Part shown: positions 17,580-19,037 of the stretch, in pieces
Layout of the letters: the number at the start of each line of letters is the position of its first letter
How positions within the stretch are numbered: position 1 is the first letter of the stretch
From: Candidatus Auribacterota bacterium
Lineage (GTDB): Bacteria; Auribacterota; Ancaeobacteria; Ancaeobacterales; Ancaeobacteraceae
Direction of reading: 5' to 3'
Length of the DNA stretch: 64,000 nt
Assembly (NCBI GenBank): GCA_022711655.1
Contig: JAKLEM010000005.1
Coordinates: 4,956-68,955 of the forward strand
The notes under the pieces: generated by a model
What the model was told of the DNA's origin: nothing
The model's input: the letters and a program-made list of their open reading frames with translations, nothing else
The model's database searches: none
Translations under genes and position numbers: made by a program

Positions 17580-19037
17580 TTAATTCTCTGACTTCTTCTT
17601 CTGGCCCCACTTCTCATCAAAGAAGAACGGGGCGCAATCCGGCTTTGTCTTCATGATACGTTCTTTAACCGCTTCCGCTTTCTTGCCTGTATCGGCGATC
17701 ACGCCGTCGTCGACGATGCGCGGGGTGACAAAGATCAGCAGTTCGGTCTTCTCGGTATCTTTCGACTGGGTCCTAAAGAAGGTTCCGACGAACGGCATGT
17801 CGCCGAGCACCGGCACCTTGCGGGCGTTGTTGACGGTGCGTTCGTTGATCATGCCGCCGATCACCAGCGTGCCGTTGTTCATCACGTTCACCTGCGTCGA
17901 CGTGCGCCTCGCGACGCGTATCGGGATATTCTCGACGAAGCCCTGGATGAACGACACCTCCGGCTCGATCAGGATGTTCACCATGCCGTTCTCTTTGATC
18001 GACGGCAATACCGGCATCATGATCCCGTAATCGAGGAATTTCGTGGTGAAAACGTAGCTGTTCGCGCCCAGCACGATACCGCTGCCGGACAGCTCACGGT
18101 ACGGGTACGATGTGACGATCTGGATATTCGCTTTCTGGTTGTTCTCGACGATGATCTTCGGGCGCGCAAGGATTTTCGCCTTGTTGAGATCGATCAGCGC
18201 GTTCACGTACGCCGAATATTTATTTTTACCGATCACCTTGCCGAAAAAGAAATTTCCGCCGTCGCCGAGCTGCGGGAGGAGCACGTCGCTTACCGTCAGA
18301 ACGTTCCTTCCGATATTTCCGCTGCCCGCCGAAATGGCGGCCGGCAACGCGATCGGACGGTTGTATTTACCGAAGAAATCATCCCGGGATATGTGCTGCA
18401 TGAAGTAATCGATCGTCATGTCGCGCTGATCGGTCACCGTCAGCTCGACGATCTCCGCTTCGATGAGCACCTGCCGCGTCTTCTTCTCCATGGAGTCGAG
18501 CTGATCGACTATCTTGGCGACCGCATCGATCGAGGACTGCGAATCGCTCACGATGATCGAGTTGCTGCTCTTGTCCGCGGCGATGGTGCCGTGCGACGAG
18601 ACGGCGCCCCGGAGGCTGTCGACCAGGGCGACGGCATCGGAGTTCTTCAACGGGAACACCTTGATCGTCCTCGCGCCTTCCTCGTCTGTCGCCGTCGCGG
18701 TGCCGGTAGACATGCCGAAGGCGGGGCTGACATCGACCTCGGGGTCCTTGATATAGTCGCTCAGGGCCGTGGTGACCATCTCGCGGAACTTCGACATCGA
18801 CAGGCCATCGACCTTGATCTTGCCGATAAGGGGGATGTCGATCTCGCCGTCGGCGTTCACGGTCACGACGCGGTCCATGTCGCTGTGTCGCTTGACGGTT
18901 ATCATGATGCTTTCGCCTTTGGATATGACCTTGTCGCCCGTCCCTTCCTGCGCGCGCACGCCGCCGCACAACATCATCGACATCGCCGCCACGACGGCCG
19001 CGACTAACCGTACCCTGTGCATTAATTCACGCTTCAT
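17580..19037 (-). CDS. Fusion of a polysaccharide export (Poly_export/OPX D1) domain, a secretin N3 domain and a secretin core
   Basis: Signal peptide ending VRA. OPX-like GESIMITV...VTVNADGEIDIPLIGKIKVDGL...YIKDPEVDV. N3-like IKVFPLKNSDA...DKSSNSIIV...IVDQLD. Secretin motifs QVLIEAEIVE, KILARPKI, TLVIGG, KVPVLGDMPFVGTFFR and TELLIFVTPRIV. Start revised to 19037. Confidence 0.85.
   Translation of the reverse strand: MKRELMHRVRLVAAVVAAMSMMLCGGVRAQEGTGDKVISKGESIMITVKRHSDMDRVVTVNADGEIDIPLIGKIKVDGLSMSKFREMVTTALSDYIKDPEVDVSPAFGMSTGTATATDEEGARTIKVFPLKNSDAVALVDSLRGAVSSHGTIAADKSSNSIIVSDSQSSIDAVAKIVDQLDSMEKKTRQVLIEAEIVELTVTDQRDMTIDYFMQHISRDDFFGKYNRPIALPAAISAGSGNIGRNVLTVSDVLLPQLGDGGNFFFGKVIGKNKYSAYVNALIDLNKAKILARPKIIVENNQKANIQIVTSYPYRELSGSGIVLGANSYVFTTKFLDYGIMMPVLPSIKENGMVNILIEPEVSFIQGFVENIPIRVARRTSTQVNVMNNGTLVIGGMINERTVNNARKVPVLGDMPFVGTFFRTQSKDTEKTELLIFVTPRIVDDGVIADTGKKAEAVKERIMKTKPDCAPFFFDEKWGQKKKSEN

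What the first reader, a model, noticed from the sequence alone, without database searches (positions are those of the whole stretch)
17580..19037. Secretin in place of Wza: an OPX (Poly_export) domain fused to a secretin at the head of a polysaccharide operon
Seen: signal peptide, one ~70-aa Poly_export D1-like domain, one N3 ring domain and a complete secretin core, directly upstream of the co-polymerase and BY-kinase. There are no SLBB repeats, no lipobox and no C-terminal helical pore. No T2SS, T4P or T3SS genes lie anywhere in the window. Known: Wza's D1 domain contacts Wzc, and its own helical barrel crosses the outer membrane; some short OPX proteins use a separate beta-barrel partner instead. 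Secretins are channels for proteins, pili and phage. Inference: this is a polysaccharide (or glycoprotein) export route in which a gated secretin is the outer-membrane pore and D1 couples it to the PCP. I do not know this architecture from characterised systems. It would also imply a symmetry mismatch between an octameric PCP and a 12-15-mer secretin.
Basis: partly seen in the sequence, partly recalled or inferred. Interest (0 to 1): 0.9.

Follow-up and report, generated by a model that had tools for sequence, protein, structure and literature searches.

The report
Polysaccharide-export docking domain fused to secretin
This gene joins the small domain that capsule exporters use to dock onto their inner-membrane partner to a secretin pore normally used for proteins and pili. 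It always sits next to polysaccharide-export genes, so it is probably an undescribed outer-membrane exit for a secreted sugar polymer.

Summary
The gene lies on the minus strand (17580-19037, 485 aa). It encodes a signal peptide, a Poly_export D1 domain, one Secretin_N (N3) domain and a full secretin core. It has no SLBB domain, no lipobox and no helical pore. It heads a PCP, BY-kinase and Wzy_C operon inside an exosortase/PEP-CTERM EPS locus.

An AlphaFold model matches Wza D1 (about 1-2 Å) and GspD/PilQ secretins. D1 is of the class-3 kind: it lacks the Tyr-ring gating loop and keeps a basic residue in the PCP-binding loop. The neighbouring PCP keeps the Y-T-x-x-H-P motif that contacts Wza D1 in E. 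coli Wzc.

The fusion is not unique. A small clade occurs in Auribacterota (this genome and Ca. Ancaeobacter). A large clade occurs in Hydrogenedentota: at least 217 clusters, and 62 of 135 species carry one copy. In all 15 loci sampled there, it sits in an ExeA-like ATPase, TPR, OPX-secretin, Wzc and Wzy_C cassette, never in a pilus or T2SS operon.

It replaces Wza at the locus, not in the genome, because relatives carry other OPX genes elsewhere. I found no published description. The cargo and the ring stoichiometry are untested.

The parts
17580..19037 (-). OPX-secretin gene (485 aa): signal peptide, D1, linker, N3, secretin core, charged tail
   Evidence: ORF and start codon; Pfam; AF2 model with mean pLDDT 80
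18951..19037 (-). Signal peptide, about residues 1-29 (VRA|QE); no lipobox
   Evidence: Read from the sequence; the AF2 model has a helix at 2-24; a lipobox-like motif is present in only 5 of 132 relatives
18726..18935 (-). Poly_export (PES) D1 domain, residues 35-104. It is class-3-like: short beta1-beta2 loop and a conserved Y-I-K97-x-P99 loop
   Evidence: Pfam 2e-16; PDB profile search, 9n9a 3e-14 without gaps, while Wza needs an 11-aa insertion; Foldseek rmsd 0.8-1.9 Å; residue conservation
18669..18725 (-). Flexible D1-N3 linker, residues 105-123
   Evidence: pLDDT below 50 for residues 109-119; linker length is 14-21 aa in 132 relatives
18492..18662 (-). Secretin_N (N3) ring domain, residues 126-182
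   Evidence: Pfam 7e-13; pLDDT above 90
17706..18485 (-). Secretin barrel and gate region, residues 185-444 (Pfam secretin domain at 280-443)
   Evidence: PF00263 covers 1-169 of 169, E 5e-40; TIGR02517 aligns 185-444 to 333-592 of 600; Foldseek to GspD 1.9e-20; the invariant LVIGG motif is G394/G395 in 131-132 of 132 relatives
19042..20721 (-). Upstream gene: cytoplasmic HATPase_c_4 domain, TM helix and periplasmic TPR. Candidate secretin or OPX assembly and scaffold partner
   Evidence: Pfam and NCBIfam; conserved directly upstream in L008 and L009. In the Hydrogenedentota clade this position is taken by an AAA_22 ATPase plus a TPR protein
16091..17554 (-). PCP (Wzz+GNVR, XrtA-type chain-length determinant) with long helical arms and an apex motif R282-E-Y-T-E-K-H-P289
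   Evidence: MAFFT aligns the motif with E. coli Wzc K332-L-Y-T-K-V-H-P; AF2 places it in the loop at 281-288
15353..16087 (-). BY-kinase with Walker A and a C-terminal YYYYYY cluster
   Evidence: TIGR01007 1.9e-57, above its cut-off; sequence
13889..15286 (-). Wzy_C-family polymerase or ligase
   Evidence: Pfam 4e-9; the same position is conserved in relatives
9853..13992 (-). Four glycosyltransferase genes (GT9, two GT4 including one stp2-like, and GT2)
3889..9816 (-). Exosortase (8938-9816), EpsI/DUF3485 (8282-9235 ORF), PrsT-like TPR protein (5856-8264) and asparagine synthase-type amidotransferase (3889-5838)
   Evidence: Pfam PF09721 3e-69, PF11984 5e-26, TPR, PF00733
20760..23702 (-). 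Response regulator(s) and GAF histidine kinase at the head of the cluster
   Evidence: Pfam; the same order is seen in L008 and L009

Best explanation
The protein is the outer-membrane translocon of the Wzy/PCP-dependent exopolysaccharide pathway encoded by this exosortase-type locus.

Shown: it is a natural chimera. The N0 domain that ordinary secretins use to contact their inner-membrane platform has been replaced by the D1 (Poly_export) domain that OPX proteins use to contact the PCP. The gene is co-operonic with a PCP, a BY-kinase and a Wzy-family protein in every relative examined.

Inferred: the protein multimerises into a secretin ring in the outer membrane. The ring of D1 domains hangs below the N3 ring on 14-21-residue flexible linkers. 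D1 docks through its alpha1-beta5 loop (Y95-I-K97-x-P99, plus R50 and D53) onto the Y-T-x-x-H-P tip of the long helical arms of the PCP octamer. Polymer made at the inner membrane would then pass through the PCP cage into the secretin vestibule and leave through the secretin gate.

This D1 lacks the Tyr-ring gating loop of class-1 Wza, and the protein has no SLBB domain and no beta-barrel partner. Gating and membrane crossing would therefore both fall to the secretin.

The TPR protein encoded directly upstream (with a cytoplasmic ATPase-like domain here, or a separate ExeA-like ATPase in Hydrogenedentota) probably helps to assemble or scaffold the ring. That would parallel GspA/B, PilF/PilW and TadD for other secretins.
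For: Architecture.

Structure: the AF2 model has pLDDT 80. Foldseek finds GspD/PilQ at E 1e-20 to 1e-16 and Wza or WzaB D1 at rmsd 0.8-1.9 Å.

D1 is class-3-like. It aligns without gaps to WzaB (9n9a, E 3e-14), whereas Wza needs an 11-aa insertion, which is the Tyr-ring loop (PMC12819527 section 8).

The residue aligned with WzaB R106, which is essential for WzcB binding (PMC12819527 section 14), is K or R in 132 of 132 family members. P99 is invariant in 132 of 132, R50 is kept in 127 and an acidic residue at position 53 in 129.

Wza D1 is the Wzc-contacting domain, with contacts D99, E102 and Y155 to K332, Y334, T335 and H338 (PMC12881504). The window PCP carries R-E-Y-T-E-K-H-P, aligned with Wzc K-L-Y-T-K-V-H-P. 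In the AF2 model of the PCP this motif lies in a helix-loop-helix tip.

Synteny: OPX-secretin followed by PCP and BY-kinase, then Wzy_C wherever the contig reaches that far, in L008 (39% identity; a radical-SAM gene sits in the Wzy_C position), L009, L092, L096, L117 and 15 of 15 Hydrogenedentota genomes. L094 is cut inside the PCP and L095 just after the secretin gene.

The genome has its own pilMNOPQ-type secretin and a T2SSE/T2SSF/pilin set on other contigs, so this secretin is not needed for the pilus.

The same lineage (G001) also has the two-gene equivalent in another EPS locus: a BBP2_2 beta-barrel followed by a Poly_export+SLBB protein and a PCP/BYK. This shows what the fusion replaces.

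Precedent for polysaccharide leaving through secretins: PMC12475490.
Against: No experiment exists, and all members come from uncultured bacteria.

Secretin gates are normally opened by a pilus, pseudopilus, needle or phage. Nothing here is known to open the gate for a flexible glycan, and a 5-8 nm lumen is far wider than a polysaccharide chain needs.

PCP octamers and 12-15-mer secretins do not share a symmetry, and I could not model the complex.

The D99-K332 salt bridge of Wza-Wzc is not conserved; here both positions are basic, R50 and R282. The Y-T-x-x-H-P motif is degenerate in the Hydrogenedentota PCPs.

HMMER alone did not align the PCP apex with Wzc. The motif match rests on MAFFT plus identity of the pattern.

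No Wzx flippase or priming transferase was identified in the window.

A T2SSE ATPase gene lies convergently next to the cassette in 6 of 17 Hydrogenedentota loci, and a seventh has a same-strand MshEN-T2SSE.
Confidence: 0.65

Rival explanations
1. The secretin carries protein cargo: PEP-CTERM proteins processed by the exosortase, or glycoproteins made by a PglL-like Wzy_C enzyme. D1 only couples protein release to the polysaccharide machine, or polymer and protein leave together as a conjugate.
For: Secretins are classically protein and filament channels. The window locus has an exosortase and EpsI, and the genome encodes at least 9 PEP-CTERM proteins above the cut-off. How PEP-CTERM proteins cross the outer membrane is unknown. 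The Wzy_C family also includes O-oligosaccharyltransferases (my own knowledge). A wide gated pore suits bulky cargo better than a single glycan chain.
Against: tblastn with the window's exosortase found no match within about 10 kb of the gene in any of the 15 sampled Hydrogenedentota genomes or in L092 and L096. The PCP/BY-kinase and Wzy_C partners are invariant there. The exosortase link is therefore lineage-specific, and the PCP link is universal. D1 has no known role in protein export.
Confidence: 0.17
2. It is a working pilus or T2SS-type secretin that a pseudopilus or pilus passes through. The D1 domain is only an accessory anchor or regulator that ties it to the EPS machine.
For: The closest non-fused relative of the secretin part (P0138) lies in an MshE-PilC-pilin-PilMNO-secretin operon. 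A T2SSE ATPase is a convergent neighbour in 6 of 17 Hydrogenedentota loci, one of them (L092) also with a pseudopilin gene, and a seventh has a same-strand MshEN-T2SSE.
Against: There is no pilin, PilC/GspF, PilMNOP or GspC gene in the window or inside the conserved cassette. The N0 domain that binds GspC or PilP is missing. The genome has a separate PilQ in a pilM-linked operon.
Confidence: 0.08
3. It is a non-functional chimera, or an assembly or gene-calling artefact.
For: The genome is a 75%-complete MAG in 56 contigs.
Against: The same intact architecture occurs in more than 130 sequences from independent assemblies in two phyla, at 25-67% identity. Key residues are invariant across all three domains, and it is present as a single copy in 62 of 135 species.
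Confidence: 0.02

Closest known systems
Class-3 OPX composite translocon (M. xanthus WzaB/WzpB/WzcB and EpsY/EpsX; PMC12819527, PMC9601211; PDB 9n9a)
   Same: The D1 domain is of the same kind: best PDB sequence match, no gaps, rmsd 0.8 Å, and no Tyr-ring gating loop. A basic residue occupies the PCP-binding alpha1-beta5 loop. The pore function is handed to a beta-structured outer-membrane protein. The gene is adjacent to a PCP/BY-kinase. A two-gene version (BBP2_2 porin plus Poly_export-SLBB) exists in the sister genome.
   Different: There is no SLBB (D2) domain and no N-terminal lipid anchor. The pore is a multimeric secretin covalently fused to D1, not a separate monomeric 18-strand barrel. 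The secretin has its own gate.
E. coli Wza-Wzc (class-1 OPX; PDB 2J58, 9r60-9r69; PMC12881504)
   Same: D1 has the same fold (29-35% identity, rmsd 1.1-1.9 Å). The partner PCP carries the [KR]-x-Y-T-x-x-H-P apex motif that contacts D1. The BY-kinase has a Tyr-rich tail. The gene order is exporter followed by PCP/kinase.
   Different: D2, D3 and the alpha-helical D4 barrel are absent, as are the lipobox and the Tyr-ring loop. The PCP and the kinase are separate polypeptides, and the PCP arms are about 95 residues longer. The expected stoichiometry is not 8:8.
T2SS/T4P secretins GspD and PilQ (for example PDB 5WQ7, 5ZDH, 6VE2), with GspA/B (ExeA/B) and TPR pilotins
   Same: N3 plus a complete secretin domain (E 5e-40; Foldseek 1e-20). 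A TPR protein is encoded directly upstream, and in the Hydrogenedentota clade there is also an ExeA-like AAA_22 ATPase.
   Different: N0, N1 and N2 are absent, and D1 stands where N0 should be. There are no platform, pilin or ATPase genes in the operon. All NCBIfam secretin equivalog models score below their cut-offs (187 against 351 for GspD).
PilQ/GspD 'slime nozzles' of cyanobacteria and myxobacteria (PMC12475490)
   Same: A secretin is proposed as the exit for an exopolymer.
   Different: Those are ordinary T2SS/T4P secretins with no physical or genomic link to a PCP. Here the link is a covalent fusion to the PCP-docking domain.
XrtA/PEP-CTERM EPS loci (TIGR03027 exporter, TIGR03007, TIGR03018, PrsT, exosortase)
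   Same: The window locus has an exosortase, EpsI, a PrsT-like TPR protein, an amidotransferase, an stp2-like glycosyltransferase, an XrtA-type PCP and a kinase. D1's best NCBIfam OPX hit is TIGR03027.
   Different: The short TIGR03027 exporter is replaced by the secretin fusion. No TIGR03015 ATPase is found in this genome. No sigma-54 PrsR-type regulator was found among the scanned ORFs of the window.

Membership tests
OPX (outer-membrane polysaccharide export) proteins | Poly_export/PES (D1) domain | tested here: met
   PF02563 at 60 bits against a cut-off of 28; fold match to Wza and WzaB D1
OPX (outer-membrane polysaccharide export) proteins | One or more SLBB (D2/D3) domains after D1 | tested here: not met
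   No SLBB hit at E<=0.01. D1 is followed by a linker and then Secretin_N.
OPX (outer-membrane polysaccharide export) proteins | N-terminal lipoprotein signal (lipobox Cys) | tested here: not met
   The VRA|QE site is of the SPase I type. A lipobox-like motif occurs in only 5 of 132 relatives.
OPX (outer-membrane polysaccharide export) proteins | Gene adjacent to and working with a PCP | tested here: met
   A PCP lies 25 nt downstream. This adjacency is conserved in every relative whose downstream gene could be read. Adjacency is shown; the functional link is inferred.
Class-1 OPX (Wza) | C-terminal amphipathic helix forming the outer-membrane barrel, and a Tyr-ring gating loop in D1 | tested here: not met
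   The C-terminal tail is charged. The 11-aa loop is absent in the alignment with 2J58.
Secretins (GspD/PilQ/InvG superfamily) | Full-length secretin domain preceded by an N3 (Secretin_N) domain | tested here: met
   PF00263 covers 1-169 of 169 at 5e-40; PF03958 at 7e-13; Foldseek probability 1.00 to 40 secretin chains
Secretins (GspD/PilQ/InvG superfamily) | N0 (STN/GspD_N0) domain that contacts the inner-membrane platform | tested here: not met
   No PF07660 or PF21305 hit, whereas the non-fused relatives P0138, P0228, P0243 and P0258 have them
Secretins (GspD/PilQ/InvG superfamily) | Encoded with T2SS, T4P, T3SS or phage assembly genes | tested here: not met
   None in the window. The pilus genes are on contigs C4 and C34.
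Secretins (GspD/PilQ/InvG superfamily) | 12-15-mer SDS-resistant ring in the outer membrane with a periplasmic gate | not testable with these tools
   Only a monomer model could be made. The gate-region sequence is present and conserved (LVIGG).
XrtA/PEP-CTERM exopolysaccharide system | Exosortase with EpsI, and PEP-CTERM substrates in the genome | tested here: met
   PF09721 3e-69 and PF11984 5e-26; at least 9 PEP-CTERM matches above the cut-off
XrtA/PEP-CTERM exopolysaccharide system | TIGR03027-type short exporter, TIGR03007 PCP and TIGR03018 kinase above their cut-offs | tested here: inconclusive
   These models are the best or near-best hits but fall below their curated cut-offs: 42 against 180, 218 against 279 and 163 against 231 bits

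The most novel reading that the evidence does not exclude
OPX-secretins are a fourth class of outer-membrane polysaccharide translocon, after the Wza helical barrel, the synthase-type beta-barrels and the class-3 OPX plus porin. In this class a gated 12-15-mer secretin ring is tethered by flexible linkers to an octameric PCP cage. The symmetry mismatch is tolerated because only some D1 domains engage at once. The wide channel would exist because the cargo is bulky, such as a pre-bundled fibre or a polymer carrying exosortase-attached PEP-CTERM proteins. The fusion would then be the 'Rosetta stone' showing that the unfused secretin-PCP operons of Omnitrophota, and the secretin-dependent slime of cyanobacteria and myxobacteria, use the same route.
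Probability: 0.4. Interest if true: 0.88.

Novelty: new variant of a known kind. Interest (0 to 1): 0.75.

Why it matters
How Wzy-dependent and exosortase-linked polymers cross the outer membrane is still open when the OPX protein has no pore of its own. Whether secretins ever carry polysaccharide has only recently been claimed, and only from genetics and imaging.

A natural fusion of the PCP-docking domain to a secretin is the strongest kind of genomic evidence that the two machines are physically coupled. The fusion is conserved in two phyla and always lies in a PCP/BY-kinase/Wzy cassette.

It also offers a compact, expressible test object: one gene plus its PCP. With it, D1-PCP binding, ring stoichiometry and gate opening by a non-protein cargo can be tested directly.

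The databases name these proteins inconsistently, either 'polysaccharide biosynthesis/export family protein' or 'GspD'. Genome-based inventories of T2SS and capsule systems will therefore miscount them.

Tried and rejected
1. The genome-contig scan with patterns from the seven close homologues returned 80 ordinary secretins. None had D1, PCP or BYK nearby. The patterns were too specific to the Auribacterota clade, so this scan says nothing about how widespread the fusion is.

2. The first word-based search suggested only 7 members. The exhaustive HMMER search and a second search seeded with P0175 showed that this was a large underestimate.

3. Other Auribacterota secretins whose match began near profile position 30 (L110-L112) have no D1 by tblastn. 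I did not count them as fusions.

4. Poly_export ORFs of 480-540 aa in the phylum looked like further fusions. They are TPR+Poly_export proteins, not secretins.

5. TIGR03015 (ExeA-like ATPase), the BBP2_2 porin, the short OPX and CpsB were not found in this 75%-complete genome. Their absence is weak evidence.

6. The promoter and terminator scan of 13.5-24.2 kb found no more sites than shuffled sequence gives.

7. phmmer of the PCP against PDB did not align the apex with Wzc. The motif correspondence rests on MAFFT.

8. A tree of the N3+secretin part places both fused clades together (SH-aLRT 93). A non-fused T4P-type pair is sister to the window's clade (90). One origin and two origins of the fusion therefore cannot be told apart.

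9. Literature searches found no description of the fusion. The terms tried were OPX+secretin, PEP-CTERM+secretin, PF02563+PF00263, Hydrogenedentes+secretin and Auribacterota.
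Full report
**What is there**

The finding's coordinates hold one gene on the minus strand, 17580-19037, encoding 485 aa. 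Its ATG at 19037 follows a GGAG and lies 4 nt after the stop of the upstream gene.

Pfam finds three domains. Poly_export covers residues 35-104 (E 2e-16). Secretin_N covers 126-182 (7e-13). A full-length Secretin domain covers 280-443, matching profile positions 1-169 of 169 (5e-40). There is no SLBB, STN or N0 domain.

NCBIfam agrees. GspD, PilQ and MshL models match residues of about 145-444, all below their equivalog cut-offs. The best OPX model for residues 37-105 is the XrtA/PEP-CTERM exporter TIGR03027.

The N-terminus is a type I signal peptide (…GGVRA|QEG) without a lipobox. The last 40 residues are charged.

**The surrounding locus**

The gene sits in a tightly packed, single-strand cluster of about 23 kb. 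In order of transcription it contains:
- a GAF histidine kinase and response regulator(s);
- a protein with a cytoplasmic HATPase_c_4 domain, a TM helix and periplasmic TPR repeats;
- the OPX-secretin;
- a PCP (Wzz+GNVR, best hit TIGR03007);
- a BY-kinase (Walker A and a C-terminal YYYYYY);
- a Wzy_C protein;
- four glycosyltransferases;
- an exosortase, EpsI, a PrsT-like TPR protein, an asparagine-synthase-type amidotransferase, and two sensor proteins.

The rest of the window (24-64 kb) is housekeeping: LepA, the trp operon, RodA/PBP2/MreC, MutS/MutL and others. It holds no T2SS or T4P genes.

**The genome**

The window comes from a 1.62-Mb, 75%-complete genome. Its nearest held relative, G001, carries a locus whose tblastn coordinates and identities match those of L009, which encodes the NCBI protein of Candidatus Ancaeobacter aquaticus. 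That organism belongs to the phylum Ca. Auribacterota in the PVC group.

This gene is the only Poly_export match in the genome.

The genome has a second, ordinary secretin on contig C34, downstream of a pilM-like gene. T2SSE, T2SSF and pilin genes lie on contig C4. The pilus system therefore has its own secretin.

At least 9 PEP-CTERM proteins are encoded.

**Structure**

An AlphaFold2 model built from a 63-sequence alignment has mean pLDDT 80. D1, N3 and the barrel are above 90. The D1-N3 linker (109-119) and one barrel insertion (218-260) are disordered.

Foldseek against the PDB gives T2SS and T4P secretins first (GspD 1.9e-20, PilQ 6e-17). For the N-terminal domain it gives:
- Wza D1, rmsd 1.1-1.9 Å over 83-85 residues at 29-35% identity;
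- the class-3 OPX WzaB of M. xanthus, rmsd 0.8 Å over 71 residues.

A D1-only profile finds WzaB (9n9a) best, at E 3e-14, in an ungapped alignment. Class-1 Wza needs an 11-residue insertion in the beta1-beta2 loop. That loop is the tyrosine-ring gate of Wza and is characteristically missing in class-3 OPX proteins (PMC12819527 section 8). The D1 here is therefore of the ungated, class-3 kind.

**Docking surfaces**

In E. coli, the Wza D1 domain is what binds Wzc. The contacts are D99, E102 and Y155 on Wza with K332, Y334, T335 and H338 on Wzc. Deleting D1 abolishes co-localisation (PMC12881504).

In M. xanthus, the WzaB alpha1-beta5 loop residues R106 and R107 are needed for WzcB binding and for export (PMC12819527 section 14).

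In the alignment, WzaB Y-V-R106-R-P corresponds to Y95-I-K97-D-P99 of the window protein. Across 132 fused proteins:
- position 97 is K or R in all 132;
- P99 is invariant;
- R50 is kept in 127;
- an acidic residue at 53, the Wza E102 position, is kept in 129.

On the other side, the window PCP has R282-E-Y-T-E-K-H-P289. MAFFT aligns this with E. coli K-12 Wzc K332-L-Y-T-K-V-H-P, and the Tyr is invariant in all seven PCPs aligned.

An AF2 model of the PCP (pLDDT 73) places this motif in a loop (281-288) between helices, at the tip of very long helices (146-256 and 322-400). The arms are about 95 residues longer than in Wzc.

These correspondences fit D1-PCP docking, but they rest on alignment. 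The D99-K332 salt bridge is not conserved. The motif is degenerate in the Hydrogenedentota PCPs.

**How widespread it is**

The first word-based search found only 7 proteins with this architecture. An exhaustive HMMER search of 1.84 billion representatives found those, represented by two 50% clusters. It also found a second, more distant clade at 25-29% identity with the same three Pfam domains.

Seeding a search with a member of that second clade gave at least 217 clusters at E<=1e-40. The best 120 all have Poly_export+Secretin_N+Secretin. Most of those that carry a name come from Candidatus Hydrogenedentes/Hydrogenedentota MAGs (one is labelled Nitrospiraceae). Sources name them either 'polysaccharide biosynthesis/export family protein' or 'GspD'.

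Among species-representative genomes:
- 2 of 79 Auribacterota carry the fusion;
- 62 of 135 genomes of the other phylum carry exactly one copy.

**Gene context of relatives**

In the Auribacterota-type loci the order is GAF-HK, RR, HATPase_c_4-TPR, OPX-secretin, PCP, BY-kinase. This order is kept even at 39% identity.

In the second clade, 15 of 15 sampled genomes show AAA_22 (ExeA/GspA-like) ATPase, TPR protein, OPX-secretin, Wzc-like PCP/BY-kinase (with a YYYYYYY tail) and Wzy_C. The same order is seen in the metagenomic contigs as far as each one reaches. An FHA-GAF-HD gene is transcribed divergently in 13 of the 15. tblastn with the window's exosortase found no match within about 10 kb in any of them. 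A convergent T2SSE ATPase follows in 6 of 17 loci, and a seventh (L096) has a same-strand MshEN-T2SSE.

The closest non-fused relative of the secretin part (P0138) has an N0 domain. It lies in an MshE, PilC, pilin, PilMNO, secretin operon.

The secretin moiety therefore derives from T4P/T2SS-type secretins, with D1 in the position of N0. The tree cannot decide between one origin and two origins of the fusion.

**'In place of Wza'**

This holds for the locus only.

Ca. Ancaeobacter (98% complete) has a second EPS locus with a BBP2_2 beta-barrel, a 212-aa Poly_export+SLBB protein, a fused PCP/BY-kinase, CpsB, a TPR protein and Wzy_C. That is the published composite class-3 arrangement (PMC9601211).

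Most Hydrogenedentota carriers have 1-7 further Poly_export genes.

The side-by-side presence of the two-gene and fused solutions in one lineage shows what the fusion replaces: SLBB plus porin is swapped for N3 plus secretin, while D1 stays.

**Interpretation**

The best-supported reading (about 0.65) is that this is the outer-membrane translocon of the PCP/Wzy pathway of the locus. D1 would be the PCP adaptor and the secretin would be the gated pore. The upstream TPR and ATPase-like proteins would act as assembly or scaffold factors.

Shown:
- the architecture;
- the fold;
- the class-3-type D1;
- conservation of the loop and motif residues;
- the strict synteny;
- independence from pilus genes.

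Inferred:
- ring formation;
- D1-PCP binding;
- polysaccharide as the cargo;
- how the gate opens;
- how an octameric PCP meets a 12-15-mer ring. The flexible 14-21-residue linker is a plausible answer to this last point.

The main rival (about 0.17) is protein or glycoconjugate cargo such as PEP-CTERM proteins. It fits the window but not the exosortase-free Hydrogenedentota cassette. A pilus or pseudopilus role (about 0.08) is kept alive only by the T2SSE neighbour. An artefact is excluded by conservation.

**Novelty**

I found no description of this fusion in the searchable literature. A 2025 paper argues that ordinary PilQ/GspD secretins are needed for slime secretion (PMC12475490). The OPX classification papers do not include a secretin fusion.

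Earlier notes of this scan had already flagged the Hydrogenedentota fusion and unfused secretin-PCP operons in Omnitrophota. My results agree with the former independently. I did not test the latter.

I rate it a new variant of a known kind, a PCP/OPX export machine with a different pore. Interest is high because the hypothesis is directly testable with one or two genes.

Noticed in passing
Not in the window; proteins P0121-P0267: More than 100 of the best 150 representatives in the exhaustive search are giant secretins of 1,400-5,500 aa. Two were checked. P0121 (3491 aa) has a GspD N0 domain, 25 Secretin_N domains and a Secretin domain. P0134 (1947 aa) has 20 Secretin_N domains and a Secretin domain. 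Their origin and function are unknown.
   Followed up: partly
L114 471-1922 and L115 164-1747 (other Auribacterota genomes, G015 and G013): These are TPR+Poly_export fusion proteins of 483-527 aa. In L114 the gene directly downstream was scanned and is a PCP. About ten similar 490-625 aa Poly_export ORFs occur in the phylum, along with ORFs of about 1,050-1,090 aa that carry a Poly_export domain.
   Followed up: partly
L113 6514-15272 (G001, Ca. Ancaeobacter aquaticus, contig C79): A second EPS locus holds a BBP2_2 beta-barrel porin, a short Poly_export+SLBB OPX, a fused PCP/BY-kinase with short arms, a CpsB phosphatase, a TPR protein and Wzy_C. A GAF-GGDEF gene is divergent to it. It was not detected in the window's own, incomplete genome.
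   Followed up: partly
L126, L127, L132, L134, L136, L092 (Hydrogenedentota loci): A T2SSE-family ATPase gene lies convergently right after the Wzy_C gene in 6 of 17 loci. L096 has a same-strand MshEN-T2SSE about 5 kb downstream. Whether it belongs to the system is open.
   Followed up: no
window 16091-17554 (-): The PCP paired with the fusion has about 95 more residues in its periplasmic helical arm than E. coli Wzc. The arm is also longer than in the PCP of the beta-barrel/short-OPX locus of the sister genome. The Hydrogenedentota PCPs share the extension.
   Followed up: partly
window 19042-21168 (-): The mechanical ORF of 708 aa overlaps the response-regulator gene. The likely start is the ATG at 20721 (MENESKSP…), which gives about 559 aa, matching the 554-623 aa homologues in L009 and L008. 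The cytoplasmic HATPase_c_4 domain fused through one TM helix to periplasmic TPR repeats is itself unusual. It stands where the other clade has an ExeA-like ATPase plus a TPR protein.
   Followed up: partly
window 470-23702: No Wzx-type flippase or priming phosphoglycosyl transferase was recognised among the scanned ORFs of the locus. Either they are encoded elsewhere or the pathway differs from the textbook Wzx/Wzy scheme.
   Followed up: no
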